From Gallionellaceae bacterium UBA2239 (GTDB lineage Bacteria > Pseudomonadota > Gammaproteobacteria > Burkholderiales > UBA9220): a stretch of 64,000 bases of DNA. The DNA lies in the NCBI GenBank assembly GCA_002347615.1, contig DDYH01000006.1, positions 8,573 through 72,572 of the forward strand. Direction: 5' to 3'. The notes under the pieces are model-generated. The model was not told the origin of the DNA. It did no database searches and was given only the letters and a program-made list of their open reading frames with translations. A program made the translations under genes and the position numbers. Positions 3,349 to 19,316 of this stretch are shown here, piece after piece (position 1 is the stretch's first letter; each line of letters starts with the position of its first letter).

Positions 3349-3459
3349 GACCTCAAATCCAATGGAGTGCAAATGAATACGCTTCCGGGCAGGTTGGTAT
3401 TGGCCGGCGGCCGGCGCAGCGAAGTTTTCCGCAATTAGCACCTGACTTCCTCTCGATGC

Positions 3460-3492: not shown

Positions 3493-3511
3493 GCCCTCGA
3501 AACCACGCGCC

Positions 3512-4098: not shown

Positions 4099-4155
4099 TG
4101 TTTTGGTAAGTGACGTGTGCCCGAATATTGCAGCGTGATTTCAGCTTAGCTTAAA

Positions 4156-4328: not shown

Positions 4329-4344
4329 TTAAAAATCGTTTCGG

Positions 4345-5148: not shown

Positions 5149-5163
5149 GACTTTTCTCCTCGG

Positions 5164-5604
5164 TTAGATGTCCAGCGGCCCCACGTGGGCCACCAGGGTG
5201 GGGTTTTCCCGCCACAGTTCCGGGTCGGCGTCCACGTAGAGCTCCAGTTCGTTGCCGTCCGGGTCCGCCAGGTAGAGGGACTGGGACACCCAATGGTCCG
5301 ACTGGCCGGTGACGGGGATTCCTTTCGCCAGCAGTTCCTCCTTCACCGCCTTGAGCTCCTCCAGGGAATCGCCCACCTTGAAGGCCAGGTGATAGAGGCC
5401 CAGCGCCCGGGGCGGCGGGTTGGGGGCGCCGGGGCCCAGTTCCAGCAGGGCCAGGTCGTGGTGGTTGGTGCCGAGGGAGAAGAACACCATGTGGTCCCGG
5501 TAGCGGGCCACTTCCCGCATTCCCAGCACGTCCCGGTAGAAGGGCACGGAGCGTTCCAGGTCGCGGACCTTGAGGGTGGCGTGGCCGAGGGCGCTGATGT
5601 GCAT
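5164..5604 (-). CDS. VOC-family (glyoxalase/extradiol dioxygenase-like) protein
   Basis: 146 aa. LGHATLKVRDLERSVPFYRDVLGM .. HHDLAL .. LYHLAFKV .. SLYLADPDGNELELY, a typical VOC beta-alpha-beta module. Confidence 0.85.
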   Translation of the reverse strand: MHISALGHATLKVRDLERSVPFYRDVLGMREVARYRDHMVFFSLGTNHHDLALLELGPGAPNPPPRALGLYHLAFKVGDSLEELKAVKEELLAKGIPVTGQSDHWVSQSLYLADPDGNELELYVDADPELWRENPTLVAHVGPLDI

Positions 5605-5710
5605 AGGCGATCCCTTTAGCGAATGAGCAAACCTTAATGAGCAAACCTAAGGCTAGACTGTGAGCATGGCTTTGACCAGCCTCACCGCGGGAACGAGAAA
5701 GGGAGAGACG

Positions 5711-6565
5711 ATGACAACAGGCCCGAGTTTGATCGTGCGCCCCATGGCGGAGGAAGAAGTGGCCTTCGCCGTGGACCAGGCGGCCCGGGAAGGATGGAAT
5801 CCGGGCCTGTTCGACGGCGGGGTGTTCTACCGTGCCGACCCCCGGGGATTTCTTTTGGCCGAACTGGAAGGCCGGCCGGTGGGCGCCATTTCGGCGGTGG
5901 CCTACCCCGGCGGATTCGGTTTCATCGGCTTCTATATCGTGCTGCCGGAGCACCGCGACAAAGGCTACGGCCTGGCCTTGTGGCAGGCCGCCATGGAGCG
6001 GCTCAAGGGCTGCAACGTGGGCCTGGACGGGGTGCTGGACCAGCAGGAGAACTACCGCAAATCCGGCTTTCATTTCGCCTACAGCAACATCCGCTTCGAA
6101 GGGGCCGGGGGCGGGACCCGGCCCTCCGATCCCTCCCTGGTGGATCTGGGCATCGTGCCCTTCGAGCAACTGATGGCCTACGACCGCCGCTTCTTCCCCG
6201 CCGAGCGGCGGCTGTTCCTCGACGGCTGGCTCGGCCTGCCCCAGTCCAGGGGCTGCGCCGTGGTGCGGGACGGCGTGCTGTCGGGCTATGGTGTGGCGCG
6301 GCGCTGCCGCAAAGGCTTCAAGGTCGGCCCCCTGTTCGCCGACGACCGGGTATCCGCCGAGGAAATCTACCGCGCCCTGGCCGCCTTCGCCGGCCCCGGC
6401 GAGCCGGTCTACCTGGACGTGCCCGAGGCCAACGCCGAGGCCATGGCCATGGCGGCGCGCTACGGCATGCGCCAGGTGTTCGGCACGGCGCGGATGTATA
6501 CCGGGCCGGCGCCGGACATCCACCTGGCCGGGGTGTACGGGGCCACCAGCTTCGAGCTCGGTTGA
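5711..6565 (+). CDS. GNAT-family N-acetyltransferase (YitH-like two-domain type)
   Basis: Start chosen at MTTGPSLIVRPMAEEEVAFAVDQAAREGWNPG. GNAT core FIGFYIVLPEHRDKGYGLALWQAAMERL. Confidence 0.8.
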   Translation: MTTGPSLIVRPMAEEEVAFAVDQAAREGWNPGLFDGGVFYRADPRGFLLAELEGRPVGAISAVAYPGGFGFIGFYIVLPEHRDKGYGLALWQAAMERLKGCNVGLDGVLDQQENYRKSGFHFAYSNIRFEGAGGGTRPSDPSLVDLGIVPFEQLMAYDRRFFPAERRLFLDGWLGLPQSRGCAVVRDGVLSGYGVARRCRKGFKVGPLFADDRVSAEEIYRALAAFAGPGEPVYLDVPEANAEAMAMAARYGMRQVFGTARMYTGPAPDIHLAGVYGATSFELG

Positions 6566-6738
6566 CAGCCCGTGGGCGGGTTTTTTTCGTACAATGTCAA
6601 TTTTAATCTGAAACTCGCGTAGCGAGCCCTCGTCCCCCTCGCCCGTTCCGCCGTGGTTGCCGCTTTGCGGCGGGCACCCGGCGAGAACACCCCTTGTGGG
6701 TGCGGGTGAGGGTAGGGGTGAGGGAAATGGGAGTCGGC

Positions 6739-7554
6739 ATGAAAATCGCGTTCATCGGCGGCGGCAATATGGCCAGCGCCCTCATCGGCGGACTCGTCGG
6801 CAAGGGCTTCGCCCCTGCCGACATCCGCGTGGTGGAAATCACCCCCGAGGCCCGGGAGCGGCTGCAGAGCCGCTTCGGCGTCGCCGCCTACGGCGAGATG
6901 GCCCCCGCGGTGGAGGGGGCGGACGCGGTGGTGCTGGCGGTGAAGCCCCAGCAGCTTTACCCGGTGGTGAAGGAGCTGGCGCCCTTGCTTTCGAACCAGC
7001 TGGTGGTGTCCATCGCCGCCGGGGTGCGGGCTTCGGACATCTCCCGCTGGCTGGGGGATTACCCCAAGGTGGCGCGGGCCATGCCCAACACGCCGTCCAT
7101 GGTGGGGGCCGGCATCAGCGGCCTCTACGCCATGCCCGGCCTGGGGGAGGGCGAGCGCAAGCAGGCCGAAACCATCCTCGCCGCGGTGGGCATGACCCTG
7201 TGGCTCCACGACGAATCCCAGATGGACGCCGTCACCGCCGTCTCCGGCAGCGGCCCGGCCTACGTCTTCTACTACCTGCAAGCCCTGCAGGAAGCGGCCC
7301 AGGAGCTGGGCTTCTCCAGCGCGGAAGGCCGCACCCTGGCCCTGGAAACCTTCGTCGGCGCCTGCAAGCTGGCGGCGGACAGCGGCGAGGACTTCGCCCT
7401 GCTGCGGGCCAAGGTGACCTCCAAGGGCGGCACCACCGAGGCCGCCATCCTCAGCAAGGAGGCCGCCGGGGTGCGCGCCGCCATCGTCCAGGGGGTGAAG
7501 GCGGCCCGCGCCCGCTCCGCCGAGCTGGCGGAAGAACTCGGCAAGGCGGAGTAG
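6739..7554 (+). CDS. proC: Pyrroline-5-carboxylate reductase
   Basis: MKIAFIGGGNMASALIGGL Rossmann start. Conserved ..VSIAAGV.., MPNTPSMVGAGISG, TSKGGTTEAAI. Confidence 0.95.
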   Translation: MKIAFIGGGNMASALIGGLVGKGFAPADIRVVEITPEARERLQSRFGVAAYGEMAPAVEGADAVVLAVKPQQLYPVVKELAPLLSNQLVVSIAAGVRASDISRWLGDYPKVARAMPNTPSMVGAGISGLYAMPGLGEGERKQAETILAAVGMTLWLHDESQMDAVTAVSGSGPAYVFYYLQALQEAAQELGFSSAEGRTLALETFVGACKLAADSGEDFALLRAKVTSKGGTTEAAILSKEAAGVRAAIVQGVKAARARSAELAEELGKAE

Positions 7555-7557
7555 GCG

Positions 7558-8136
7558 ATGCTGGCCCAAGCCCTGCAATTCATCATCGAATCGGTGTTCA
7601 ACCTGTTCGCCCTCGCTCTGCTGCTGCGCTTCCTGCTGCAATGGGTGCGGGCCTCCTTTCGCAACCCCTTCGCCCAGTTCCTGGTGGCCCTGACCAATTT
7701 CCTGGTGCTGCCTTTGCGCCGCGTGATCCCCGGCTTGGCCGGGCTGGACCTGGCCTCACTTTTCGCCGCCTGGCTGGTGGAGTTCCTGATGCTGCTGGCG
7801 GTCCTGGCGGTGAGCGGTTTCCCCTTGCTGGTGGCGGGCTGGGGCGTGGTGCCGGGGGTCATGCTGTGGGCGGTGGTGAAGCTGGTTTCCCTCAGCGTTT
7901 ACGTCCTGATGGGGGCGGTGCTGATCCAGGCCCTGCTGTCCTGGGTCAACCCCTACACCCCCCTGGCGCCGATGCTCGACGCCCTGGCCGGGCCGGTGCT
8001 GCGCCCGGTGCGCAGGCTGCTTCCCCCCATCGGCGGCGTGGACCTCTCGCCCCTGGTGGTGCTGCTGGCCCTGCAACTGGTGCTGATGCTGCCGGTGGCG
8101 TGGCTGGAGATGATGGTGATGGGGCTGTTCCGCTGA
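7558..8136 (+). CDS. yggT: YggT-family integral membrane protein
   Basis: 192 aa with two YGGT repeats (LLLRFLLQWV.. / ..VLIQALLSWVNPY). Conserved position after proC. Confidence 0.85.
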   Translation: MLAQALQFIIESVFNLFALALLLRFLLQWVRASFRNPFAQFLVALTNFLVLPLRRVIPGLAGLDLASLFAAWLVEFLMLLAVLAVSGFPLLVAGWGVVPGVMLWAVVKLVSLSVYVLMGAVLIQALLSWVNPYTPLAPMLDALAGPVLRPVRRLLPPIGGVDLSPLVVLLALQLVLMLPVAWLEMMVMGLFR

Positions 8137-8420
8137 TGTGGTATCGCTTTGACGACAAGAAGAAGCTCTTGTCCCTCACCCTCTACATCCAGCCCGGCGC
8201 CAAGCGCACCGAAGTGGCGGGGCTCCACGGCGAAGCGCTGAAAATCCGCATCGCCGCCCCCCCGGTGGACGGCGCCGCCAACGAAGCCCTGCTGGATTTC
8301 CTCAAGAAAGCCTTCGGCGTGCCGGGCTCCAGCGTCACCCTGAAACACGGCGCCAGCGGGCGCAGCAAGGTGGTGGAAATCCAGTCCCCCGCAGTCTCTC
8401 CCGAGGCCCTGCTGAAATGA
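8136..8420 (+). CDS. yggU: DUF167 (YggU) family protein
   Basis: ATG at 8136 overlaps the yggT stop (TGATG). LYIQPGAKRTEVAGLHGEALKIRIAAPPVDGAANEALLDFL matches the YggU family. Confidence 0.85.
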   Translation: MWYRFDDKKKLLSLTLYIQPGAKRTEVAGLHGEALKIRIAAPPVDGAANEALLDFLKKAFGVPGSSVTLKHGASGRSKVVEIQSPAVSPEALLK

Positions 8421-8440
8421 TGTCGAAGAAAACGGCTTTT

Positions 8441-8520
8441 GCCGCCAAGACGCCAAGCACGCCAGGAAATAAATCTCTTCTCTCCTTTGTTTTCCTTGGC
8501 GTTCTTGGCGTCTTGGCGGC
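8441..8520. repeat. Palindromic intergenic repeat, family B
   Basis: GCCGCCAAGACGCCAAGCACGCCAGG (8441-8466) pairs with CCTTGGCGTTCTTGGCGTCTTGGCGGC (8494-8520) around an AT-rich loop. Confidence 0.75.
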
Positions 8521-8538
8521 TAAAAACAGGTTTTTGAA

Positions 8539-9897
8539 ATGATGGACTGGAACCGCCTGCTCTCCCCCCGCCGCCTGGGCAAGGCCGCCCCGGACCCGTC
8601 CACCGGCCTGCGCACCGACTTCCAGCGGGATTTCGACCGCATCGTCTATTCCTCCGCCTTCCGCCGCCTCCAGGACAAGACCCAGGTGTTCCCCCTGGCC
8701 CAGAGCGACTACGTGCGCACCCGCCTGACCCACAGCCTGGAGGCGGCCAGCGTCGGACGCTCCCTGGGGATGCTGGTGGGGGAGGCGGTGATCGCCCGCC
8801 ACGGCCTGAAAGACCTGGCCCCCGCCGACTTGGGCGCCATCCTGGGGGCCGCCTGCCTGGCCCACGACATCGGCAATCCCCCCTTCGGCCACCTGGGGGA
8901 GGCGGCGATCCAGGAATGGTTCCAGAAAAGCCCCGCGGGCTGGGAGGCGGTGGAGCGGGCGCCCCTGGCCCAGCGCCGGGATTTCCTCGAATTCGAAGGC
9001 AACGCCCAGGGTTTCCGCCTCCTCACCCGGCTGCAAAGCCCCGACAACCCCGGCGGCATGCAGCTCACCTGCGCCACCCTGGGGGCCTTCACCAAGTATC
9101 CCCGCACCTCCGGCGCCGAACTGGCGGGCTACCAGGGGGCCAGCGTCAAGAAGTACGGCTTCTTTGCCTCGGAGTTGGACCATTTTGCCGACGTGGCGGC
9201 GGAAACCGGGTTGCTCGCAAGGGCCGACGGCGCCTGGGCGCGCCATCCCCTGGCCTTCCTGATGGAGGCGGCGGACGACATCTGCTACACCATCGTCGAC
9301 CTGGAGGACGGCTTCCGCGTCGGCCTCCTGGCCTACGACGAAGTGGCCGGCCCCCTCACCGACGCCCTGGGGGGCAAGGACCAGGTGGCGGTGCGCCTGG
9401 CCGGCATCCGCAACCCCAAGGAGCGCATCGAATACCTCCGCGCCCGGGCCATCAACGAAGTGGTGCGCCAGGCGGCGGAATGCTTCCTGGACCACGAAGC
9501 CGGCCTGCTGGACGGCAGCTTCGACCAGCCCCTGGTGGACCTGATCGCCGTCGCCCCGGCGGTGCGCGGAATGAAAAAGCTGGGCCGGGAGCGGGTCTAT
9601 GTCGCTCCTCAGGTGCTGGAGATCGAAGCCGCCGGCTTCCGCGTCCTGGGCGGCCTGCTGGAACTGTTCGTGGGGGCGGTGGAAGAGGTGGCGGAGAAAG
9701 GGAAGAAGGGCGCCAGCGTCAGCTCCTCAACCCTGCTGCGCCTGCTTCCCCCTCAGTTCCTGGGGGAGAACGGCGAGCCGGAGACCGACCCCTACGCCCG
9801 CCTGATCCAGCTCACCGATTTCGTGTCCGGGATGACCGACTCCTACGCGGTTTCCCTGTACAAGAAGCTCACCGGCATTTCCCTGCCGGGGGGGTGA
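8539..9897 (+). CDS. dgt: dGTP triphosphohydrolase-like HD-domain protein
   Basis: 452 aa. DFQRDFDRIVYSSAFRRLQDKTQV, THSLEAASVGRSLG, LAHDIGNPPFGH: the dGTPase family signature. Confidence 0.9.
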   Translation: MMDWNRLLSPRRLGKAAPDPSTGLRTDFQRDFDRIVYSSAFRRLQDKTQVFPLAQSDYVRTRLTHSLEAASVGRSLGMLVGEAVIARHGLKDLAPADLGAILGAACLAHDIGNPPFGHLGEAAIQEWFQKSPAGWEAVERAPLAQRRDFLEFEGNAQGFRLLTRLQSPDNPGGMQLTCATLGAFTKYPRTSGAELAGYQGASVKKYGFFASELDHFADVAAETGLLARADGAWARHPLAFLMEAADDICYTIVDLEDGFRVGLLAYDEVAGPLTDALGGKDQVAVRLAGIRNPKERIEYLRARAINEVVRQAAECFLDHEAGLLDGSFDQPLVDLIAVAPAVRGMKKLGRERVYVAPQVLEIEAAGFRVLGGLLELFVGAVEEVAEKGKKGASVSSSTLLRLLPPQFLGENGEPETDPYARLIQLTDFVSGMTDSYAVSLYKKLTGISLPGG

Positions 9898-9962
9898 ATG
9901 CCGCCGCTGGTAGTTTGAAAGATTCCACCTCTAGCCAGGCGAGTGTTTGTTGCATGGCTCGG

Positions 9963-10062
9963 CAGAAAATGAAAGAGGCCGCATGTAGCGGCCTCGCATT
10001 TGGTGCATCTTTCAGCTTGTTAGCGGACAGAGCTCATATCCCGATATCGTAGTAACATCAAG
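9963..10062 (-). ncRNA. Predicted tracrRNA (anti-repeat + linker + terminator hairpin); ends approximate
   Basis: Minus strand of 10019-10056 is complementary to the crRNA-sense repeat (18-nt perfect core plus flanking matches and a 1-nt bulge). It is followed by hairpin GAGGCCGC-UACAU-GCGGCCUC (9975-9995) and UUUCAUUUUCU. Confidence 0.75.
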
Positions 10063-10104
10063 GCTACACGTATAGTCCCGTAAAATCAAACACAAGGGGG
10101 GAGT

Positions 10105-13100
10105 GTGCTCAGGAAGATGCGTTATCGCCTGGCGTTGGATGTTGGCTCGACATCCATTGGCTGGTGCCTGATTCGACTGAATGCCGACGATGAGCCGATT
10201 GCCATTATCCGAATGGGGGTGCGCATATTTTCCGATGGGCGCAATCCCAAAGATGGCTCGTCCCTTGCCGTGACCCGCCGCAACGCCCGGCAAATGCGCC
10301 GTCGGCGGGATAGGTTGCTGAAACGCAAGGAACGGATGTTGTCTGCTTTGACCCGTCTCGGCTTCTTTCCTTTGGATGAGGCCAAGCGCCGCGAATTAGT
10401 GAGTCTCGATCCCTATGCCTTGCGTAAAAAAGGTCTGTATGAAGCGTTGAGCGGCCCCGAGTTTGCGCGGGCGTTGTTTCATATCAATCAACGACGCGGA
10501 TTCCTAAGTAATCGCAAGACGGACAGGAAAGACAGCGAAAGCGGGGCGCTTAAGAAGGCAATCAAAGGGCTGCGGGGAAAGCTGGCCGAGGAGGGATGCC
10601 GAACGCTGGGGGAATGGCTGGCTCGCCGCCATGAGCAGCGCCTGAGTGTACGCGCGCGCCTGCGGGGCAAGACGCAGAAAGAAAAGGCCTACGATTTCTA
10701 TGCCGACCGGGCAATGATCGAGCATGAATTCGACGCGCTTTGGGACCGGCAGGAAGCGCTAAATCCCGTCCTTTTCAATCCCGCCGCTCGTGATGAACTC
10801 AAAGACATCCTGCTTCATCAGCGCCGTCTCAGACCGGTTCGACCCGGGCGCTGCACCCTTCTGCCGGAAGAGGAGCGCGCGCCGCTGGCATTGCCCAGCA
10901 CCCAGCGTTTCCGTATCTATCAGGAGGTCAACAATCTGAGGGTTCTTTCGCCGGCGGATATGTGCGAAAAGCCGTTGACGCTGGATCAGAGAAACCGTGT
11001 CGTCGAATTGCTTGAGCGGCAGGGCGAGGTCCGTTTTACCAGGATACTTAAAGAGTTGAACCTGTCTGGCGCCACCAAATTCAACCTGGAAGACATCAAG
11101 CGCGATCGGCTCAAAGGAAACTCCACCTCCGCTGTTCTTGCCAAGGAGAATTGCTTTGGCGAGCGGTGGTACGGTTTTGATGGGGCAGTGCAGGACGAAA
11201 TCGTGGACCGGTTGCTGAACGATGCCAGCAAGTCGGCCTTGGTGAATTGGTTGCAGGAACGGACGGGCGTAGACGAGGCGTGTGCCGAAACCATCGCCAA
11301 CGTGAGCTTGCCGGAAGGGTATGGCAACTTGAGTCGCAAGGCGCTGTCCCGGATTCTTCCCGAACTTGCCGCGGATGTGACGGTGTATTCCGATGCGGTT
11401 GTCCGAGCGGGATTTGACAGCCACAGCGCGCTGTCTTCCGCGGAGCAAACGGGCGAAATTTTGGGTGAATTGCCTTACTATGGCATTCCCCTACGCCGCC
11501 ACGTCGCCTTTGCCAAAGACCATCCGCGCAACGACGAGGAGCGTTATGGGAAAATCGCCAACCCGACGGTGCATATCGGCTTGAACGAATTGCGCAAGGT
11601 GGTAAACGCCCTCATTCGACGGTATGGCCATCCCAGCGAAGTGATTGTGGAGGTGGCGCGAGAGCTCAAACTGGGGCGTGAACGAAAGCTGGAAATCCAG
11701 CGCGAACAGAAGGAACGGCAAGACCTCAACGACAAACAGGTGGCCGAAGCCTGCGCCGTGCTCGGTTGGACCCCAGCCAACCTTGACCGCGCCAAGCGGC
11801 GCGAACTTTCGCAGAAAATGCAGTTGTGGGTGGAGCTCAACCCCAAGAACGTGGCTGACCGGCAGTGTCCCTATACCGGCGAACAAATCGGCATTGAGCG
11901 GCTTTTGTCGAGCGAGGTGGAGATTGAGCACATCCTTCCTTATTCCGCCACTCTTGACGACAGCATGAACAACAAGACGGTTTCCCTGCGCCGCGCCAAT
12001 CGCGACAAAGGAAACCGGACTCCCTATGAGGCCTTCGGCGTGCAGCCGATACCCGGCTACGACTACCAAGCCATTCTTCTGCGTGCCTCAAATATGCCCA
12101 GGGAGAAGGCCAAGCGTTTCGCACCGGATGGCTATCAGCGTTGGCTGAAGGAGGACAAGGATTTCCTCGCCCGGGCACTCAACGATACCGCCTATCTATC
12201 CCGCATTGCCAAGGAATACCTCTCCCTGATTTGCCCGCCCAATAAGGTACGTGTTATCCCGGGAAGAATGACGGCGCTGTTGCGGGGTAAGTTTGGGTTG
12301 AATCAGCTCCTGTCCGGTTCCGAGGTGAAAAACCGTGACGACCATCGTCACCACGCGCTGGATGCGGCGGTGATCGGTGTTACGGACCAAGGGCTGTTGC
12401 AGCGTTTCGCCAAAGCGAGCGCAAGCGCGCGGGAGCGGCAGCTTGATCGGCTTGTGGAGGAAATGCCTCTGCCTTGGCCTAGCTATCGGGAACACGCGGA
12501 GCGGGCATTGGGCGGCATCGTCATCAGCCACAAACCGGACCACGGGTATCAGGGTGCCATGCACGAAGAGACGGCCTGGGGCCTATGCGGCGACGGCGTG
12601 GCGAGCAGGCGCGTGCGCCTGGAGGACGGGGGTCCCCGCCAGCGCGAATTCAGGAATAAGAACCTGGTCGAGATCGACAGTACCCGTGATCCAAACCGCC
12701 ACGGCATGGACGAGCATGGCCGGCCACGGCACTACAAGGGCTATGTGGGCGGCAGCAACTATTGCATTGAAATTTGGCGGGGTGAGAAAGGAAAGTGGGA
12801 TGGGGACGTGGTATCCACATTCCAGGCTTACCAATTAATAAGACAATGGGGGGAAATCGAGGGAGCGAGACGGCTTCGCGACCTAAGCTTCAGCCAGTCC
12901 GGTAGGCCCTTGGTGATGCGGCTGATGATCGATGATTTGGTAAGACTGCAGGTGGATGGGAAAGAAAGGACGATGCGCGTGGCCGTAATAAGCGGCAATG
13001 GCCAGATTTTTATGTGCGACCATCATGAGGCGAACGTGGACGCCCGGAATCGGGATAAGCAAAATCCCTTTGCGTACATCTCTAAATTGCCGGGTTCTCT

Positions 13101-13173
13101 TCAGAAAGCAAAGGGCCGGAGGGTTACCGTGTCCGAAATTGGCGAACTGCGCGATCCGGGCTTCAAGGGATAA
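10105..13173 (+). CDS. cas9: Cas9, type II-C (1022 aa from GTG 10105; alternative ATG at 10117)
   Basis: RuvC-I YRLALDVGSTSIGW, Arg-rich bridge helix RRNARQMRRRRDRLLKRK, RuvC-II VIVEVARELK, HNH EIEHILPYS..DDSMNNKTVSLRRANRDKGNRTPYEAF, RuvC-III DDHRHHALDAAVIG. No csn2 or cas4 nearby. Confidence 0.97.
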   Translation: MLRKMRYRLALDVGSTSIGWCLIRLNADDEPIAIIRMGVRIFSDGRNPKDGSSLAVTRRNARQMRRRRDRLLKRKERMLSALTRLGFFPLDEAKRRELVSLDPYALRKKGLYEALSGPEFARALFHINQRRGFLSNRKTDRKDSESGALKKAIKGLRGKLAEEGCRTLGEWLARRHEQRLSVRARLRGKTQKEKAYDFYADRAMIEHEFDALWDRQEALNPVLFNPAARDELKDILLHQRRLRPVRPGRCTLLPEEERAPLALPSTQRFRIYQEVNNLRVLSPADMCEKPLTLDQRNRVVELLERQGEVRFTRILKELNLSGATKFNLEDIKRDRLKGNSTSAVLAKENCFGERWYGFDGAVQDEIVDRLLNDASKSALVNWLQERTGVDEACAETIANVSLPEGYGNLSRKALSRILPELAADVTVYSDAVVRAGFDSHSALSSAEQTGEILGELPYYGIPLRRHVAFAKDHPRNDEERYGKIANPTVHIGLNELRKVVNALIRRYGHPSEVIVEVARELKLGRERKLEIQREQKERQDLNDKQVAEACAVLGWTPANLDRAKRRELSQKMQLWVELNPKNVADRQCPYTGEQIGIERLLSSEVEIEHILPYSATLDDSMNNKTVSLRRANRDKGNRTPYEAFGVQPIPGYDYQAILLRASNMPREKAKRFAPDGYQRWLKEDKDFLARALNDTAYLSRIAKEYLSLICPPNKVRVIPGRMTALLRGKFGLNQLLSGSEVKNRDDHRHHALDAAVIGVTDQGLLQRFAKASASARERQLDRLVEEMPLPWPSYREHAERALGGIVISHKPDHGYQGAMHEETAWGLCGDGVASRRVRLEDGGPRQREFRNKNLVEIDSTRDPNRHGMDEHGRPRHYKGYVGGSNYCIEIWRGEKGKWDGDVVSTFQAYQLIRQWGEIEGARRLRDLSFSQSGRPLVMRLMIDDLVRLQVDGKERTMRVAVISGNGQIFMCDHHEANVDARNRDKQNPFAYISKLPGSLQKAKGRRVTVSEIGELRDPGFKG

Positions 13174-13178
13174 TTGAA

Positions 13179-14108
13179 ATGATCGGCCGCATCGTTGAAG
13201 TGGCCGATGACCGACGGCATCTCTTTGCCTCCCGCGGCTTCATGGTCGTGCAGGATACGGAAGGCGAGCGCAAGGAGTTGGGGCAGGTTCCCCTGGACGA
13301 CATCGCAGCCGTTATCGCCAATGCCCACGGCCTGAGCTACACCAACAACCTGCTGGTGGCCCTCGCGGAACGCGGCGCGCCTTTCGTTCTGTGCGCAGCC
13401 AACCACAACGCTATCGGCATGCTGTGGCCGATAGACGGGAATTACCAGCAGGCCAAACGGTTCGATGCCCAATTGGCGGCGACCCGTCCCACGCACAAAC
13501 GGCTGTGGGCTGAAGTGGTGCGGAGCAAACTGCAACAGCAGGCCGCCGCTTTGGAGGCGGCGGGCGCCAACTCCATACCTCTTTCCGCCCTGGCGGCCAA
13601 GGTTCGTTCCGGCGACTCCGGCAACCTCGAAGCCCAAGGAGCCCGGCGCTACTGGGCGTTGTTGTTCGGGGGCGACTTCAGGCGCGACCAGAATGGGGAC
13701 GGGATCAACGCCCTGCTCAATTATGGCTACACCGTGCTGCGTGCCGCCATGGCACGAGCCATCGTTGCTGCCGGGCTTCATCCCACCCTGGGCCTTCACC
13801 ATGCCAATGAAAGCAACGCCATGCGCTTGGTGGATGACCTGATGGAGCCGTTTCGCCCAGTAATCGATTTGCACGTATGGCAATTGGGCAGAACCGGGGA
13901 GGCGGCAGTTACACCCGACACCAAGCGAACCCTCGTGCGGTCACTTTATGACGACATGCAAACCACTTCCGGCGCGACTCCGGTCATGGTGTGCATGCAG
14001 CGGTTGGCGGTGTCCCTGGCTCAGGTATACATGGACCAGAGAGACAAACTGGACCTTCCCTTGCCGGGGTTGCCGTTGTCCATGGCGGCCAGCCTGGCCG
14101 ATGACTGA
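13179..14108 (+). CDS. cas1: Cas1 (type II)
   Basis: 309 aa, 5 nt after the cas9 stop. ..NALLNYGYTVLRAAMARAIVAAGLHPTLGLHHANESNAMRLVDDLMEPFRP.. is the Cas1 catalytic core. Confidence 0.95.
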   Translation: MIGRIVEVADDRRHLFASRGFMVVQDTEGERKELGQVPLDDIAAVIANAHGLSYTNNLLVALAERGAPFVLCAANHNAIGMLWPIDGNYQQAKRFDAQLAATRPTHKRLWAEVVRSKLQQQAAALEAAGANSIPLSALAAKVRSGDSGNLEAQGARRYWALLFGGDFRRDQNGDGINALLNYGYTVLRAAMARAIVAAGLHPTLGLHHANESNAMRLVDDLMEPFRPVIDLHVWQLGRTGEAAVTPDTKRTLVRSLYDDMQTTSGATPVMVCMQRLAVSLAQVYMDQRDKLDLPLPGLPLSMAASLADD

Positions 14109-14117
14109 GTTGTCGCC

Positions 14118-14444
14118 ATGCTCAGCGGATATCGTCTCATGTGGGTAGCCGTCATGTTCGATCTTCCCGTGGTGGAAAAGAAAGAGCGCAAAGCCGCAAC
14201 CGGATTCCGCAATGCGTTGCTGGACATGGGATTCGAGATGGCCCAGTTTTCGGTATACATGCGTTTCTGCACCAGCCAGGCGCAAATCGATACCTACTGT
14301 AGGCGGGTGGAGGAAACCTTGCCTGACGGCGGGAAAGTCAATATTCTGGTTTTCACCGACAAGCAATATGAGCGCATTATTTCTTTCCATGGGAAAGCCA
14401 AACAGGACCCGAAAAAATCACCGGACCAATTTGATTTGTTCTGA
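14118..14444 (+). CDS. cas2: Cas2 (type II)
   Basis: 108 aa. MWVAVMFDLPV..ERKAATGFRNALLDMGFEMAQFSVYMRF.. is the Cas2 ferredoxin-like fold pattern. Confidence 0.9.
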   Translation: MLSGYRLMWVAVMFDLPVVEKKERKAATGFRNALLDMGFEMAQFSVYMRFCTSQAQIDTYCRRVEETLPDGGKVNILVFTDKQYERIISFHGKAKQDPKKSPDQFDLF

Positions 14445-14465
14445 GTCGGTGCGCCTTTTTTCGAT

Positions 14466-14504
14466 TCGAAAAAATAAGAAACCCACTGACGAATCAGTGG
14501 GTTT
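14466..14504 (-). terminator. Minus-strand Rho-independent terminator between the array and cas2
   Basis: AAACCCACTGA (14479-14489), 4-nt loop, TCAGTGGGTTT (14494-14504). Read on the minus strand the hairpin is followed by CUUAUUUUUU. Confidence 0.8.
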
Positions 14505-15176
14505 CAGAACTGCGATTCTACTCTATCGGGATATGAGCTCTGGCCGGAACGCCTGCCGTTCGCGCTCGTTCAGGTCCTCTATTCTACTCTATCGGGATAT
14601 GAGCTCTGGCCGGAACTGCGTTGTGGTATCCGCCGCTGATCGTGATATTCTACTCTATCGGGATATGAGCTCTGGCCGGAACTTTGCTCGCAAGCTCAAC
14701 ACCACCGCCGGCATTCTACTCTATCGGGATATGAGCTCTGGCCGGAACGCGGCCGGCTCCCAGGTGAAGCCGGCTGATATTCTACTCTATCGGGATATGA
14801 GCTCTGGCCGGAACTGTATAATACACCTTACTACTTGAACGCACATTCTACTCTATCGGGATATGAGCTCTGGCCGGAACTTGGTCGCCACGGTCATTTT
14901 TGGCGTGCTTATTCTACTCTATCGGGATATGAGCTCTGGCCGGAACTCAAAGAGGATGCAATTCACCGCTACATCGATTCTACTCTATCGGGATATGAGC
15001 TCTGGCCGGAACAAGGACGGAAGCGCGCAGCAGAAGTCCAATATTCTACTCTATCGGGATATGAGCTCTGGCCGGAACCCCATGAGCTGTATCCCGCCTA
15101 TGACACTCATTCTACTCTATCGGGATATGAGCTCTGGCCGGAACGCATCACAGGTAACACGGCATTCCGCTTTTAT

Positions 15177-15349
15177 CCCAGATTATCCATTAGGCGGCGC
15201 TTCGCGCCTACGCGAGCGCTGGCGGCCGGTTTGCGGCCATTTTCGCCGCTTGTTCGTCGTCCATGGAATAACCATGAACTCCTCGCAAGCAACGAAACTG
15301 TCTCGCAACCCACCTCGCCATCATCTCGCGTCCTAATGGATAATCTGGG
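15177..15349 (+). mobile_element. MITE-like element, copy 2, inserted at the spacer 10 / repeat 11 junction (TSD TTTAT)
   Basis: Same TIRs as copy 1. TTTAT at 15172-15176 and 15350-15354. Excising the element plus one TSD restores ..CCGCTTTT|ATTCTACTC.. (30-nt spacer plus intact repeat). Confidence 0.95.
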
Positions 15350-16781
15350 TTTATTCTACTCTATCGGGATATGAGCTCTGGCCGGAACTTGCAACGTCAC
15401 CTACTGTTGCCCCCGACTATTCTACTCTATCGGGATATGAGCTCTGGCCGGAACGCGGTCACTGCGGCGGTCGCGCTTACCTTGGATTCTACTCTATCGG
15501 GATATGAGCTCTGGCCGGAACTCGCGGCGCTCCATGACGTATTCGCGGTACATTCTACTCTATCGGGATATGAGCTCTGGCCGGAACCACTTACCCAGTT
15601 GTGTAAAATATTTTTAGATTCTACTCTATCGGGATATGAGCTCTGGCCGGAACCTGGCCCGCGCGTTCAGCTTTTCGGGCAGCATTCTACTCTATCGGGA
15701 TATGAGCTCTGGCCGGAACTTGGGGGCGCATGGCTGACCAGTGGCGCAAATTCTACTCTATCGGGATATGAGCTCTGGCCGGAACCCACCAGGAGTCATT
15801 ATGCCGCCATTCTTAATTCTACTCTATCGGGATATGAGCTCTGGCCGGAACGCATCGACGAGCTGATCCGCGCCCGCGACGAATTCTACTCTATCGGGAT
15901 ATGAGCTCTGGCCGGAACGCGCCTGGCTCCCAGGTGAAGCCGGCTGATATTCTACTCTATCGGGATATGAGCTCTGGCCGGAACCCTTTGGGTTGCGTGT
16001 TGGTGCGTTCAAGTATTCTACTCTATCGGGATATGAGCTCTGGCCGGAACAGTCCGACACGCTGGCCCGCCTGATCGAATATTCTACTCTATCGGGATAT
16101 GAGCTCTGGCCGGAACGCTGTTGGAGCGTCGGCGCGACCGCCGGCCATTCTACTCTATCGGGATATGAGCTCTGGCCGGAACTTCAGTAAGTTCAATATC
16201 TCTTGGAAGCTAATTCTACTCTATCGGGATATGAGCTCTGGCCGGAACGGTGCCAAAGGACTCATGCAGGTCTTACCATTCTACTCTATCGGGATATGAG
16301 CTCTGGCCGGAACAGGACCACCCCGCCGTGGCGGAACTGCGCAATTCTACTCTATCGGGATATGAGCTCTGGCCGGAACCCGGAACCGCACTCGGTCCAC
16401 AGTGGGATCATTCTACTCTATCGGGATATGAGCTCTGGCCGGAACAGGTGTGCTTCGCTCAAGCTGACCGCTCCCATTCTACTCTATCGGGATATGAGCT
16501 CTGGCCGGAACTGACCAGGTGCGCGCCTATGTCGAAGCGCAATTCTACTCTATCGGGATATGAGCTCTGGCCGGAACCTGGCTTGGGTTTCGGGGCGGGT
16601 ACTATGGTTATTCTACTCTATCGGGATATGAGCTCTGGCCGGAACGCGGTGAGGAGGGGTGATCGTGGTGGCATGATTCTACTCTATCGGGATATGAGCT
16701 CTGGCCGGAACCGGTAACGGCGAACGGCAAACGTAGATAGCCCGCCGTCCTTGGAGTAGTACAACCCGGAAAGCGCCGGGT

Positions 16782-16985
16782 CTAGTCCCCTTGATAGCTG
16801 GCCGCTAATCGCATCCAGTATGCGAAGCCTTCCTTCTTCGCTTTTTTCGCATAGAAGGGTATTGACGAGAGCCGTTCTTTTAAGCGTTGCGCTTCCCGCT
16901 CGATAGCGGCTATCCTCTCCGGCGGCAAAGGCCTGGCTACCAATTCGGCCAAAGTCATCATCCGTAACCGTTCCGCCTTGTTCAT
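16782..16985 (-). CDS. Small hypothetical protein (67 aa) inside the 342-bp insert of the array
   Basis: MNKAERLRMMTLAELVARPLPPERIAAIEREAQRLKERLSSIPFYAKKAKKEGFAYWMRLAASYQGD. GGAGG lies 7 nt upstream of the ATG. Same orientation as the predicted crRNA transcription. Confidence 0.4.
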   Translation of the reverse strand: MNKAERLRMMTLAELVARPLPPERIAAIEREAQRLKERLSSIPFYAKKAKKEGFAYWMRLAASYQGD

Positions 16986-17102
16986 CGACAAACCTCCGTC
17001 CTTCGAAATCATACGTAATGCCCTTGATCGCGGGCACATGGTCAACGGTGTTCATTCTACTCTATCGGGATATGAGCTCTAACCGGAACCGTGAAGGCGC
17101 GA

Positions 17103-17741
17103 TCAACGCAAAAATCCCCCGTCCTTCAGCTCCTCCGCCACCTTCTTCGCCAGCTCGACCTGCCCGGCTTCATTGGGGTGGAGGGCGTCGAGCTTCAGTT
17201 CCTTGTCCGACAGCACGTCGGGGATGGCGTCCTCGATCAGGAATACTTTCCGCGCCTCGGCCAGTTCCGGGTAGACCTCCGCCGCCGACAGGCTGCCGAT
17301 GGCGGCGCCCACTACGCTTGGCCGGGGGGTGGCCAGGAGGATGGGGACGGCGCCGGCGTTGCGGGCCATGTTTATCATTTCCTCCAGGTTGGCGCGGGTT
17401 TCGGCCGGGGGCACTTTGCGCAGCATGTCGTTGCCCCCCAGTTCGATCATCACCGCCGCCGGCTTGTGCTCTTCCAATAGGCCGGGCAGGCGTTCCCGGC
17501 CGCCGGCGGTGGTGTCGCCGCTGACGCCGGCGTTGACCACGTTCCAGCCGGTGGCGGCGGCGAGCTTGGCGGGCCAGGCTTGTTCGGGGGTGAGGCCGTA
17601 GCCGGCGGAGATGCTGTCCCCCAGCACCAGGACCGTGGCGCCGGGGGGCAGGGCCTGCTGCTTGGGGGCGGAGCAGGCGGCGAGGGCGAGGAGGAGGGCG
17701 GCGAGCCAGAGGAGGTGGCGGTGGGGGGGGAGTGTTTTCAT
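17103..17741 (-). CDS. SGNH/GDSL hydrolase (TesA-like arylesterase/lysophospholipase), lipoprotein-type signal
   Basis: Start at MKTLPPHRHLLWLAALLLALAAC. Block I VLVLGDSISAGYG, block II NAGVSGDT, block III ELGGND, block V D.LHPN. Confidence 0.85.
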   Translation of the reverse strand: MKTLPPHRHLLWLAALLLALAACSAPKQQALPPGATVLVLGDSISAGYGLTPEQAWPAKLAAATGWNVVNAGVSGDTTAGGRERLPGLLEEHKPAAVMIELGGNDMLRKVPPAETRANLEEMINMARNAGAVPILLATPRPSVVGAAIGSLSAAEVYPELAEARKVFLIEDAIPDVLSDKELKLDALHPNEAGQVELAKKVAEELKDGGFLR

Positions 17742-17787
17742 CCTGAGTCCTCTGTTGATCCGGTTGGATTTGACATGCGCTGCGGTC

Positions 17788-17826
17788 CACCCCCATCCCA
17801 ACCTTCCCCCTTCAAGGGGGAAGGAG
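17788..17826. repeat. Family A palindromic repeat
   Basis: CCCCATCCCAA followed by CCTTCCCCCTTCAAGGGGGAAGG. Confidence 0.7.
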
Positions 17827-17861
17827 CTTGATGTGGACGCGGCCGCCTTGGGCGGCCTTGG

Positions 17862-19316
17862 CTACATCAGCACGATGTCGTAGCGCTCCTGGGTGTAGGT
17901 GCTTTCCACCTGGAGGGAGACGGATTTGCCGATGAATTCGGATAGTTGGGCCAGGCTCTGGGATTCCTCGTCCAGGAACAGGTCGATCACCTGCTGGGAG
18001 GCGAGGATGCGGTATTCCCGGGCGTTGAACTGGCGGGCTTCCCGCAGCAGTTCCCGCAGGATTTCGTAGCACACGGTCTGGGCGGTCTTGAGCACGCCGC
18101 GGCCCTGGCAGATGGGGCAGGGTTCGCACAGCACGTGTTCCAGGCTTTCCCGGGTGCGCTTGCGGGTCATTTCCACCAGACCCAGGGCGGAGAAGCCGTT
18201 GACCGTGATGCGGGTGCGGTCCTTGGCTAGCGCCCGCTTGAGTTCCTCCAGCACGTGGCTGCGGTGCTCCGGGTTGTCCATGTCGATGAAGTCGATGATG
18301 ATGATGCCCCCCAGGTTGCGCAGGCGCAGCTGGTGGGCGATGGCCTGGGCGGCTTCCAGGTTGGTCTTGAAGATGGTGTCGTCGAAGTTGCGGCCGCCGA
18401 CGAAGCCGCCGGTGTTGACGTCGATGGTGGTGAGGGCCTCGGTCTGGTCCATGATGAGGTAGCCGCCGGACTTCAGCTCCACCTTCCGCGACAGCCCGCG
18501 CTCGATTTCCTCCTCCACCCCGTTGAGGTCGAACAGGGGGCGTTCTCCGGCGTAGTGCTCGATTTTGTTCACCACGTTGTTCATGTACAGGCGGGCGAAT
18601 TCCTGCATCTTGGCGAAGGTTTCCCGGGAGTCCACCCGCACCTTGGCGGTGTCGTCGGTGATGAAGTCCCGCAGCACCCGCAGGGACAGGCCCAGGTCCT
18701 GGTAGAGCAGGGTCTTGGGGGGCGCGGTGCGGGCGGCATCGGTGATGTTGGACCACAGCTTGCGCAGGTATTCGATGTCCGCCGCCAGTTCCTCGTCGGA
18801 GGCGCCTTCGGCCACGGTGCGGATGATGTAGCCGCCCTTCTCCTCCGGCGGCAGCAGCTCCTGCAGCTTGTTGCGCAGCATGTCCCGCTCGCTCTCGTCG
18901 CCGATGCGCTGGGAGATGCCGATGTGGGACTCCTGGGGCAGGTAGACCAGGAAGCGTCCGGCGATGCTGACCTGGGTGGAGAGCCGCGCTCCCTTGGTGC
19001 CGATGGGGTCCTTGAACACCTGCACCATCAGGGGCTGGCCCTCGTGGAGCAGGCGCTCGATGGGTTTGGGGCTACCGTTGCCGTTGGCGGCGGCCTGCCA
19101 GATGTCCGCCACGTGGAGGAAGGCGGCGCGGTCGAGGCCGATGTCGACGAAGGCCGACTGCATGCCCGGCAGCACCCGGCACACCTTGCCCAGATAGATG
19201 TTGCCCACCAGGCCCCGGGCGCTTTCCCGCTCGATGTGCAGCTCCTGGGCGGCGCCCTGCTCCATGACGGCGACCCGGGTTTCCTGGGGGGTGACGTTGA
19301 TGAGGATTTCGTTCAC
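17862..19316 (-). CDS. rng: Ribonuclease G
   Basis: Start taken at GTG 19316 ([17 protein letters not shown]). S1 domain GNIYLGKVCRVLPGMQSAFVDIG. RNase E/G catalytic core ..ALTTIDVNTG... 484 aa. Confidence 0.92.
   Translation of the reverse strand: MNEILINVTPQETRVAVMEQGAAQELHIERESARGLVGNIYLGKVCRVLPGMQSAFVDIGLDRAAFLHVADIWQAAANGNGSPKPIERLLHEGQPLMVQVFKDPIGTKGARLSTQVSIAGRFLVYLPQESHIGISQRIGDESERDMLRNKLQELLPPEEKGGYIIRTVAEGASDEELAADIEYLRKLWSNITDAARTAPPKTLLYQDLGLSLRVLRDFITDDTAKVRVDSRETFAKMQEFARLYMNNVVNKIEHYAGERPLFDLNGVEEEIERGLSRKVELKSGGYLIMDQTEALTTIDVNTGGFVGGRNFDDTIFKTNLEAAQAIAHQLRLRNLGGIIIIDFIDMDNPEHRSHVLEELKRALAKDRTRITVNGFSALGLVEMTRKRTRESLEHVLCEPCPICQGRGVLKTAQTVCYEILRELLREARQFNAREYRILASQQVIDLFLDEESQSLAQLSEFIGKSVSLQVESTYTQERYDIVLM

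What the first reader, a model, noticed from the sequence alone, without database searches (positions are those of the whole stretch)
16712..17089. 342-bp non-repeat insert with an RBS-preceded small ORF between the penultimate and the degenerate terminal repeat
Repeats 31 (16676-16711) and 32 (17054-17089, GG to AA variant) are separated by 342 bp instead of about 30. This segment has visibly lower G+C than the chromosome and contains a 67-codon minus-strand ORF at 16782-16985 (MNKAERLRMMTLAELVARPLPPERIAAIEREAQRLKERL..) with a GGAGG 7 nt upstream of its ATG. The ORF is co-oriented with the predicted crRNA transcription. It lies about 70 nt downstream of the TAGAAT box of the terminal repeat, so a repeat promoter could drive it. 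A small gene embedded within an array and bracketed by repeats is unusual. It could be a captured fragment of a mobile element, a regulator, an anti-CRISPR/Aca-like relic, or a toxin-antitoxin-like addiction module. I could not assign a family.
Basis: partly seen in the sequence, partly recalled or inferred. Interest (0 to 1): 0.65.

Follow-up and report, generated by a model that had tools for sequence, protein, structure and literature searches.

The report
Mobile-element gene lodged in CRISPR array
The oldest slot of a type II-C CRISPR array holds a 342-bp piece of mobile-element DNA instead of a 30-bp spacer; it carries a complete small gene of unknown function, placed where the repeat's built-in promoter could switch it on.

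Summary
Repeats 31 and 32 of a cas9-cas1-cas2 type II-C array are 342 bp apart, and the 67-codon minus-strand ORF with GGAGG-N7-ATG is there.

The ORF is a real gene. It belongs to an uncharacterised family of about 430 clusters of small proteins with a predicted three-helix core and no known fold. Its relatives sit in integrase/AlpA/primase islands. They also lie, in an overlapping frame, inside the LPD37 domain region of giant phage-type polyvalent proteins. The window still shows that second frame (Pfam LPD37, 41.6 bits).

The segment is foreign DNA, but it is not a normal spacer, a transposon or decayed repeats. Three other assemblies carry the identical 342 bp and variant repeat while most other spacers differ. 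So this is the oldest (trailer) unit, and new spacers enter next to cas2.

The ORF lies 68 nt downstream of the trailer repeat's TAGAAT box, which relatives conserve as TAnAnT. It also lies downstream of a co-oriented lipase gene with no terminator in between. Expression is therefore plausible but not shown.

Two related arrays carry other complete genes (two toxin-antitoxin-type pairs; a methyltransferase) in the same last slot and the same orientation.

The protein's function and the capture mechanism remain unknown.

The parts
9965..10075 (-). Candidate tracrRNA: anti-repeat about 10020-10055, then hairpin 9975-9995 and a T-run
   Evidence: A 19-nt perfect core matches the repeat on the opposite strand. 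Sequence read; terminator found. The same anti-repeat, ending ...CTGTCCGCTAA, lies upstream of cas9 in many relatives.
10105..13173 (+). cas9 (1022 aa, type II-C size)
   Evidence: Pfam HNH_4, RuvC_III and Cas9_a; 43 related loci.
13179..14108 (+). cas1
   Evidence: Pfam Cas_Cas1, E = 3e-27.
14118..14444 (+). cas2
   Evidence: Pfam CRISPR_Cas2, E = 1.5e-16.
14445..14514 (-). Leader-side flank of the array, with a minus-strand intrinsic terminator (14505->14478 plus T-run) that would end array transcription
   Evidence: Terminator scan. Strain comparison shows that new spacers enter at this end.
14515..17089 (-). CRISPR array: 32 repeats, crRNA read from the minus strand
15177..15349 (.). MITE-like element inside spacer 10: 18-bp terminal inverted repeats and a 5-bp target duplication TTTAT
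   Evidence: 98.9% identical to window 4156-4330. That second copy is flanked by TTAAA.
16676..16711 (-). Repeat 31 (perfect). It would be the 3' handle of any crRNA made from the 342-nt unit.
16712..17053 (-). 342-bp foreign segment in the oldest spacer slot
   Evidence: Identical in L067, L068 and L069. No inverted terminal repeats, target duplication or repeat remnants.
16712..16735 (-). The 24 nt next to repeat 31. They would be the guide if the unit is processed like a crRNA (inference).
   Evidence: Inferred from type II crRNA architecture. No target found.
16764..16781 (-). 6-bp hairpin directly after the stop codon, with no U-run (weak terminator at best)
   Evidence: Read from the sequence. 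Not reported by the terminator scan.
16782..16985 (-). Small gene, 67 aa (P0001)
   Evidence: 118 homologues and 427 clusters at E <= 1e-3, with P0001 the top scorer at 91 bits. Third-codon-position excess. Residues 21-63 model as three helices; mean pLDDT 80 over the whole 67-residue model.
16993..16997 (-). Shine-Dalgarno GGAGG, 7 nt before the ATG
16846..17052 (-). Overlapping -1 frame that matches the C-terminal end of the LPD37 domain (profile positions 177-242 of 243). This frame is open across the whole insert.
   Evidence: Pfam PF18853, 41.6 bits, E = 1.3e-10. Both halves contribute. The same frame hits LPD37 in L001 and L005.
17054..17089 (-). Trailer repeat 32 (GG->AA at 17081-17082). 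Its crRNA-sense 3' end, TAGAAT (17054-17059), is a -10-like box. The predicted start is near 17048, by analogy with Neisseria.
   Evidence: TAnAnT is kept at this position in all related repeats. In type II-C arrays, transcription starts at the 6th nt of each spacer (PMC12477760).
17103..17741 (-). GDSL-type lipase gene (tesA-like). It is co-oriented with the crRNA and its stop codon lies 13 nt from repeat 32, with no terminator between.
   Evidence: Pfam Lipase_GDSL_2, E = 3e-28. Terminator scan of 14000-17900. Gene call in L067.

Best explanation
The 342-bp segment is a piece of mobile-element DNA fixed in the oldest (trailer) spacer slot of an active type II-C CRISPR array. It carries one complete small gene.

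Shown:
- The gene belongs to a sizeable uncharacterised family of roughly 60-100-aa proteins. The family is found in integrase/AlpA/primase genomic islands.
- In a +1 overlapping frame, the family also lies within the LPD37 domain region of giant polyvalent proteins.
- The window copy keeps every residue that is at least 90% conserved in the family, and it scores best against the family profile.
- The unit predates all 30 ordinary spacers. It is inherited unchanged in lineages whose arrays have otherwise diverged.

Inferred:
- The trailer repeat's built-in -10 box gives a predicted start about 62 nt upstream of the ATG. Read-through from the co-oriented lipase gene is also possible. Either would transcribe the unit as the first part of the pre-crRNA.
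- The GGAGG-N7-ATG site would then allow translation of the 67-aa protein.
- The gene is therefore best seen as cargo that rides on a repeat promoter. It is tolerated because it costs only the oldest spacer. It is not part of the CRISPR mechanism.
- Its role most likely lies in conflict between host and mobile elements, but this is a guess.

How the piece was captured is unknown. Illegitimate or repeat-mediated recombination followed by deletion is possible.
For: - Locus identity and orientation.
- Real gene: 5 and then 118 homologues, and 427 clusters at 50% identity, nearly all small proteins with the module at the C-terminal end.
Amino-acid differences are 6-12 of 31 in this frame, against 9-19 of 30 in the other.
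- Mobile-element context. One island is flanked by tRNA-derived direct repeats.
- LPD37 frame. Full-length polyvalent proteins carry the embedded ORF.
- Oldest unit: L067, L068 and L069 share the variant repeat, the identical 342 bp and spacer 30, then diverge towards cas2. Degenerate last repeats lie at the cas-distal end in relatives.
- Promoter: TAnAnT is conserved at the repeat end while neighbouring positions vary. Repeat-embedded promoters and a start at the 6th spacer nt are reported for type II-C (PMC12477760).
- Recurrence: L013 carries PhdYeFM + YafQ-like and DUF4160 + DUF2442 pairs, and L015 a methyltransferase. Both sit in the last slot on the crRNA strand.
Against: - There are no transcription or translation data.
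- The repeat has no -35 box or extended -10.
- Identity of the 342 bp among strains is not evidence of selection. The flanks differ by only 0.4%, so about 1.4 changes would be expected.
- The homologues were found by similarity in the small frame, which biases the frame comparison. The third-position excess is less exposed to this bias.
- No close DNA source was found: the best match is 79-85% identity over 120-180 nt, with nothing in the phage or plasmid collections.
- No function could be assigned.
- The last-slot pattern rests on three arrays only.
Confidence: 0.65

Rival explanations
1. Neutral fossil. The fragment was trapped at the trailer end by an accidental recombination. It persists only because trailer ends are rarely deleted. 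The ORF is intact only because too little time has passed for it to decay, and any expression has no consequence.
For: The strains that share it differ by only 0.4% in the flanks, so identity carries no information. The small ORF lies inside the LPD37 region of giant genes, so any fragment from that spot would contain it. In L015 the cargo gene runs into the repeat, as a random breakpoint would produce.
Against: The fragment holds the whole ORF plus its ribosome-binding site, nearly centred. Lineages that share the unit have since acquired largely different sets of spacers. All three gene-sized inserts in the clade hold complete or nearly complete genes co-oriented with the crRNA. The window copy is the best scorer against the family profile.
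Confidence: 0.3
2. Oversized but working spacer. The unit is transcribed and paired with tracrRNA at repeat 31. The 20-24 nt next to the repeat (16712-16735) then guide Cas9 against the source element. This does not exclude the ORF also being expressed.
For: The unit has a perfect downstream repeat and a promoter-bearing upstream repeat. The DNA is of mobile-element origin. In type II crRNAs, only the repeat-proximal part of the spacer is kept.
Against: Ordinary spacers here are 29-32 bp, and 342 bp is far outside that range. No target and no PAM could be derived, because none of the 30 spacers has a match in the phage or plasmid collections or in the fetched loci. In type II-C the 5' end of the crRNA is set by transcription initiation, so a 340-nt 5' extension would need trimming.
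Confidence: 0.2
3. The small protein modulates CRISPR, as an anti-CRISPR or a regulator of Cas9 or of adaptation, and was left behind by an element that entered the array.
For: It is small, of mobile-element origin and of unknown fold. There is a precedent: phage PhiAP1.1 integrates into type II-A repeats and carries AcrIIA23 (bioRxiv 10.1101/2020.10.09.333658).
Against: The arrays kept acquiring many spacers after the capture, which is hard to square with a constitutively expressed inhibitor. No HTH (aca-like) gene was called immediately next to the homologues in the loci examined. The one island with defined ends integrates at a tRNA gene, not at a repeat. No repeat-like sequence occurs in the related elements.
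Confidence: 0.07
4. Addiction (toxin-antitoxin-like) module that stabilises the locus, as the content of L013 might suggest.
For: L013 carries two toxin-antitoxin-type pairs in the equivalent slot.
Against: There is only one ORF, with no partner gene, no membrane segment and no match to any toxin or antitoxin family. The model is a soluble three-helix bundle.
Confidence: 0.04
5. Repeat 32 is not an array repeat but a plus-strand anti-repeat of a second tracrRNA-like RNA, and the 342 bp is its promoter region.
For: Read on the plus strand, repeat 32 is complementary to the crRNA repeat. Its two mismatches fall where repeat:anti-repeat duplexes usually bulge. AAGGC follows it.
Against: A conventional tracrRNA with an imperfect anti-repeat and a terminator lies upstream of cas9, and that position is conserved in relatives. 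No terminator follows repeat 32 on the plus strand; that strand runs antisense into the lipase gene. Only a weak promoter-like site was found. There was no Rfam hit.
Confidence: 0.03

Closest known systems
Type II-C CRISPR arrays with repeat-embedded promoters (Neisseria meningitidis, Campylobacter jejuni)
   Same: Order is cas9-cas1-cas2-array. Repeats are 36 nt and spacers about 30 nt. The array is read towards cas2. The crRNA-sense repeat end carries a -10-like hexamer (TAGAAT here, TACAAT in Neisseria). The leader and new spacers lie at the cas2 side (PMC12477760).
   Different: Here the first transcribed unit is 342 bp and contains a translatable gene. The -10 lacks the extended TG motif. 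The tracrRNA lies upstream of cas9 on the opposite strand.
CRISPR arrays interrupted by mobile elements (IS elements, array-targeting Tn7-like transposons, prophage PhiAP1.1 in type II-A repeats)
   Same: Foreign DNA sits between repeats. The Tn7-like elements insert in one orientation, and in 4 of 11 cases between the last two repeats (PMC11837452). PhiAP1.1 integrates into repeats. The window's own spacer 10 holds a MITE.
   Different: The 342-bp unit has no transposase, no terminal inverted repeats, no target duplication and no integrase. It is a fragment carrying a single small gene, not an element.
LPD37 domain of large polyvalent proteins (Pfam PF18853)
   Same: The -1 frame of the insert matches profile positions 177-242 above the Pfam threshold. 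Full-length members in L056, L058 and L062 contain the homologous stretch.
   Different: Only the last quarter of the domain is present. The frame under stronger selection over most of the stretch is the overlapping small ORF.
Overprinted (overlapping) genes of phages and viruses
   Same: Two reading frames over the same DNA are both conserved. The small frame stays open for 61-81 codons in 39-44% G+C polyvalent genes, where other alternative-frame stretches are full of stops.
   Different: This pair is not described in anything I could find. Translation of the small frame is not shown.

Membership tests
Ordinary CRISPR spacer acquired by Cas1-Cas2 | Length within the narrow range of the array (29-32 bp here) | tested here: not met
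   342 bp against 29-32 bp for 29 of the 31 units; the other exception is the MITE-bearing spacer 10.
Ordinary CRISPR spacer acquired by Cas1-Cas2 | Flanked by two repeats and derived from foreign DNA | tested here: met
   Repeats 31 and 32 flank it. It is homologous to mobile-element genes.
Ordinary CRISPR spacer acquired by Cas1-Cas2 | Protospacer next to the PAM in the source | not testable with these tools
   No protospacer was found for any spacer, so no PAM could be derived. No near-identical source was found for the insert.
Transposable element (IS or MITE) inserted in the array | Terminal inverted repeats and a target-site duplication; other copies in the genome | tested here: not met
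   None at the ends of the 342 bp, and no second copy in the window. All three features are met by the element in spacer 10.
Decayed repeat-spacer units | Recognisable repeat remnants, and a length of 30 + n x 66 | tested here: not met
   No match of 9 or fewer mismatches, and only 6-7-nt seeds, inside the insert. 342 lies between 294 and 360.
Small-protein family defined here (P0001-P0233) | Match to the family profile, including the residues conserved in at least 90% of members (R34, R38, S40, P43, W57, S63) and a C-terminal position of the module | tested here: met
   P0001 is the best hit at 91 bits. The conserved columns are defined on P0001 numbering. The stop codon is in register with relatives.
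LPD37 domain (PF18853) | Score above the Pfam gathering threshold over the domain | tested here: inconclusive
   41.6 bits against a threshold of 27, but it covers only profile positions 177-242 of 243, in the frame overlapping the small ORF. It is a fragment, not a domain.
Type II toxin-antitoxin module | Two adjacent small genes, at least one matching a toxin or antitoxin family | tested here: not met
   Single gene; no Pfam, NCBIfam or PADLOC hit.
Anti-CRISPR protein | Small protein encoded by a mobile element | tested here: met
Anti-CRISPR protein | Neighbouring aca-type HTH gene, or similarity to a known Acr | tested here: not met
   No HTH gene was called immediately next to the homologues. 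No PDB sequence or fold match.
Anti-CRISPR protein | Inhibition of a Cas effector | not testable with these tools
   Needs an interference assay.
tracrRNA (for repeat 32 read on the plus strand) | Imperfect anti-repeat followed by stem-loops and an intrinsic terminator | tested here: not met
   No terminator downstream on the plus strand and no Rfam match. These features are met instead by about 9965-10075 on the minus strand.

The most novel reading that the evidence does not exclude
In type II-C arrays every repeat carries a promoter. The trailer slot may therefore act as a promoter-equipped trap in which small mobile-element genes are kept and expressed. Here that gene would be a member of an undescribed family overprinted on the LPD37 domain of polyvalent proteins; in relatives it would be toxin-antitoxin pairs and a methyltransferase. 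The 67-aa protein would itself act in host-versus-element conflict, for example by modulating Cas9 or interfering with related islands or phages.
Probability: 0.12. Interest if true: 0.8.

Novelty: new variant of a known kind. Interest (0 to 1): 0.55.

Why it matters
Arrays broken by transposons or prophages are known. A fragment without any mobility genes, holding one intact gene in the oldest slot and placed to use a repeat's own promoter, is not a described arrangement. The same slot and orientation are used by other genes in two related arrays.

If the gene is expressed, type II-C arrays produce proteins as well as guides. Their trailer ends would then be a place to look for small conflict genes.

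Separately, the gene exposes a family of about 430 clusters of small proteins that overlaps the LPD37 region of giant polyvalent proteins. That is a candidate overprinted gene in phage and conjugative-element biology.

The strain comparison also gives direct evidence for which end of this array takes up new spacers.

Tried and rejected
- Repeat 32 as a plus-strand tracrRNA anti-repeat. This was attractive because the two mismatches sit at the usual bulge. I rejected it once the conventional tracrRNA was found upstream of cas9 and no terminator was found after repeat 32.
- Rfam scan of 8000-19000: only a chance miRNA hit.
- blastn and tblastn of the insert against the phage and plasmid collections: nothing.
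- Word-indexed protein search with the LPD37 frame: nothing, because gene callers had called the other frame.
- Pfam, PHROGs, NCBIfam, PADLOC, PDB sequence search and Foldseek against PDB and BFVD for the small protein: no credible hit.
- Pfam on longer family members: no fused domain.
- Viral-contig scan with a DNA pattern from the conserved core: nothing.
- Search for repeat-like (att-like) sequences in the related elements: chance-level matches only.
- 'Repeat used as attB': the one island with clear ends sits in a tRNA gene.
- Protospacers for the 30 ordinary spacers, to derive a PAM: none in the fetched loci, phages or plasmids.
- Exact look-up of the lipase protein, to find a CRISPR-less strain: only the same contig.
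- RNA fold of the unit: z = -2.3, not informative.
Full report
**1. What is there**

The window holds a type II-C CRISPR-Cas locus:
- cas9, 10105-13173, 1022 aa, with HNH_4, RuvC_III and Cas9_a domains
- cas1, 13179-14108
- cas2, 14118-14444
- an array at 14515-17089

The 36-nt repeat occurs 31 times without a mismatch. A 32nd copy at 17054-17089 has GG->AA. Ordinary spacers are 29-32 bp. Two units are oversized: spacer 10 (208 bp) and the last unit, 16712-17053 (342 bp).

The insert has 55.0% G+C against 66.8% for the chromosomal flank. That is similar to the array (54.4%) and cas2 (50.2%).

**2. Orientation and the tracrRNA**

A 19-nt perfect match to the repeat lies upstream of cas9 on the opposite strand. 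Read on the minus strand it is an imperfect anti-repeat (...TATCGGGATATGAGCTCTGTCCGCTAAC). A GC-rich hairpin and a T-run follow it. The same element, with the same ...CTGTCCGCTAA end, stands upstream of cas9 in many of the 43 related loci.

The crRNA is therefore the minus strand of the array, GTTCCGG...GTAGAAT. A strong minus-strand terminator between repeat 1 and cas2 fits this.

I had first considered that repeat 32, read on the plus strand, might itself be a tracrRNA anti-repeat. With the conventional tracrRNA found, and no terminator after repeat 32, I dropped that idea.

**3. The repeat end looks like a promoter**

In crRNA sense the repeat ends in TAGAAT. In the related arrays the same six positions read TATACT, TAGACT, TAAACT, TACACT, TACAAT or TAGAAT. 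All fit TAnAnT, while positions 3 and 5 vary.

Repeat-embedded promoters are documented for the Neisseria type II-C array. There, transcripts start at the sixth nucleotide of each spacer, and a leader-adjacent repeat left on its own makes no crRNA (PMC12477760). By analogy, repeat 32 would start transcription near 17048, about 62 nt upstream of the ATG.

In addition, a GDSL-type lipase gene (17103-17741, -) ends 13 nt before repeat 32. It points the same way, and no terminator lies in between. Transcription of the unit is plausible by two routes. It has not been shown.

**4. The ORF is a real gene of mobile elements**

The 67-aa sequence has homologues: five by direct search and 118 with a profile. 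An exhaustive profile search found 427 clusters at 50% identity with E <= 0.001, and 96 with E <= 1e-10. Nearly all are proteins of 55-150 aa with the conserved module at their C-terminal end. The window's protein is the top scorer at 91 bits. It keeps all columns that are at least 90% conserved.

Over the conserved 31 codons, per-site differences among nine loci are 0.25, 0.28 and 0.46 at codon positions 1, 2 and 3. Amino-acid differences to the window are 6-12 of 31 in this frame, against 9-19 of 30 in the overlapping frame.

The homologues lie in small integrative islands. These carry a tyrosine integrase, AlpA/HTH_17, a zinc-ribbon primase with DUF3631, AAA_25 or a helicase, and sometimes an MmeI-type restriction enzyme or a Gp49/HTH pair. 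The Thauera terpenica island is bounded by 95-bp direct repeats that include a tRNA 3' end.

An AlphaFold model built with 85 sequences gives three helices (22-39, 43-52, 54-63) at mean pLDDT 80. It has no fold match in PDB or BFVD. There was no hit in Pfam, PHROGs, NCBIfam, PADLOC or PDB sequences. The function is unknown.

**5. A second, overlapping frame**

The frame one base upstream is ORF 16684-17055, open across the whole insert. It matches the last quarter of Pfam LPD37 (profile 177-242 of 243) at 41.6 bits, E = 1.3e-10. Both halves of the match contribute. The same frame hits LPD37 in the relatives L001 and L005.

A DNA pattern from the conserved core retrieved seven metagenome loci. 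In L056, L058 and L062 this frame belongs to giant proteins of 2598 aa, 1952 aa and at least 1879 aa. Each has a full LPD37 domain (140-200 bits), together with ART-PolyVal, PBECR5, LPD38 or Helicase_C. The small ORF is open inside them. It is also open, for 70-77 codons, in three viral contigs of 39-40% G+C, where other alternative-frame stretches are full of stops.

In several islands the LPD37 frame is broken by stop codons while the small ORF is intact. Sometimes the small ORF is there in tandem copies.

So the small gene seems to be overprinted on the end of the LPD37 domain, and it survives on its own in islands. The window's piece carries both frames. Upstream of the ATG, the conservation is in the LPD37 frame.

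**6. What the 342 bp is not**

- It has no terminal inverted repeats or target duplication.
- It has no second copy in the window.
- It has no repeat remnants.
- Its length does not fit lost repeats.

By contrast, spacer 10 holds a typical MITE at 15177-15349. It has 18-bp inverted ends and a TTTAT duplication, and it is 98.9% identical to 4156-4330, which is flanked by TTAAA.

**7. Age and polarity**

The exact 67-aa protein is on three other assemblies. All three have the variant repeat, the identical 342 bp and spacer 30.
- L068 (flank 100% identical) shares spacers 30 to 18 and then differs.
- L069 has spacers 30 to 20 and then 4 to 1.
- L067 (flank 99.6%, 41 differences in 10.3 kb) shares only spacer 30 and a variant of spacer 28. 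All its other spacers are different.

The cas-distal end is therefore the conserved, old end. New spacers enter next to cas2, as in Neisseria. In relatives, the degenerate last repeats also lie at the cas-distal end.

The 342-bp unit is the oldest unit and has been inherited stably. With only 0.4% flank divergence, its perfect identity says nothing about selection.

**8. The same slot in relatives**

Among about 28 arrays of this Cas9 clade with a complete distal end, two more have a gene-sized insert. Both are between the last two repeats and on the crRNA strand.
- L013 (82% Cas9 identity) has 1303 bp holding a PhdYeFM antitoxin, a YafQ/RelE-like toxin, a DUF4160 protein and a DUF2442 protein.
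- L015 has 953 bp holding a SAM methyltransferase whose reading frame runs into the repeat.

No gene-sized insert occupies any other slot. If insertion were equally likely in every slot, three out of three in the last slot would have a probability of about 3e-4. Three out of three in one orientation has a probability of 1/8. Three cases are few, and survivorship at conserved trailer ends could explain the position.

Array-targeting Tn7-like transposons also favour the last slot (4 of 11) and a fixed orientation (PMC11837452). A streptococcal phage integrates into repeats. But I found no repeat-like sequence in the related elements.

**9. Most likely explanation**

A piece of mobile-element DNA, holding one complete small gene, became fixed in the trailer slot. 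There the trailer repeat's promoter, and read-through from the lipase gene, can transcribe it, and a good ribosome-binding site can have it translated.

- Shown: the foreign origin, the reality of the gene family, the age of the unit and its stable inheritance.
- Inferred: expression.
- Unknown: the function and the capture mechanism.

The main rival is a neutral fossil. The unit could at the same time yield a crRNA from its last 24 nt. A CRISPR inhibitor is unlikely, because the arrays kept growing. A toxin-antitoxin module and a second tracrRNA are not supported.

**10. Verdict**

The finding is real and more interesting than a broken array, but it is not a new kind of system. It is a new variant of 'foreign DNA inside an array', with a possible expression logic specific to type II-C arrays. 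It also gives a lead to an undescribed overlapping gene in polyvalent proteins.

Noticed in passing
window 15145-15352 (element 15177-15349) and window 4156-4330: Spacer 10 is 208 bp because a 173-bp MITE-like element sits at the spacer/repeat junction. It has 18-bp terminal inverted repeats (CCCAGATTATCCATTAGG) and a TTTAT target duplication. A 98.9% identical copy, flanked by TTAAA, lies at 4156-4330. The assembly L069 lacks spacers 5-19 and therefore this insertion.
   Followed up: partly
L056 2030-2215 within ORF 7-7803; L058 2788-3033 within ORF 33-5891; the small ORF on the minus strand of L062 (pattern match at 2629-2669) within ORF 49-5688; L071-L073 around 2230: The small-protein family is encoded in the +1 frame over the end of the LPD37 domain of giant polyvalent proteins. 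That frame stays open for 61-81 codons even at 39-44% G+C. In islands, the LPD37 frame is often broken while the small ORF persists. This is a candidate overprinted gene that I could not find described.
   Followed up: partly
L013 15304-16606; L015 14897-15849: Related type II-C arrays carry complete genes between the penultimate and last repeat, on the crRNA strand. L013 has PhdYeFM + YafQ/RelE-like and DUF4160 + DUF2442 pairs. L015 has a SAM methyltransferase whose frame runs into the repeat. In L013 the cargo-side 9 nt of the last repeat differ from the consensus.
   Followed up: partly
L024 5274-5309: A lone repeat copy (1 mismatch) lies 4.6 kb upstream of cas9, next to a truncated EAL-domain gene fragment. 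Repeats therefore bracket the whole cas operon plus several unknown small genes.
   Followed up: partly
window 9965-10075 (-): Candidate tracrRNA, divergent from cas9: an imperfect anti-repeat, then a terminator at 9995->9975. Its position and its ...CTGTCCGCTAA end are conserved across the Cas9 relatives. Rfam has no match for it.
   Followed up: yes
window spacers 4 (14749-14778) and 19 (15919-15948): Two spacers differ by only two bases, so the same protospacer region was sampled twice or from variants. L069 goes from spacer 20 straight to spacer 4. That fits a deletion by recombination between these near-identical units, or an assembly collapse.
   Followed up: no
window 16711/16712 junction: The last 7 nt of repeat 31 (CCGGAAC) resemble the first 7 nt of the insert (CGGTAAC). 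This microhomology could mark an illegitimate recombination breakpoint.
   Followed up: no
window 17053-17055 (-): The last two bases of repeat 32 plus the first base of the insert form an ATG in frame with the LPD37-like frame. This gives a 123-codon ORF that ends inside repeat 31. It has no Shine-Dalgarno sequence and would lie upstream of the predicted repeat-promoter start.
   Followed up: no
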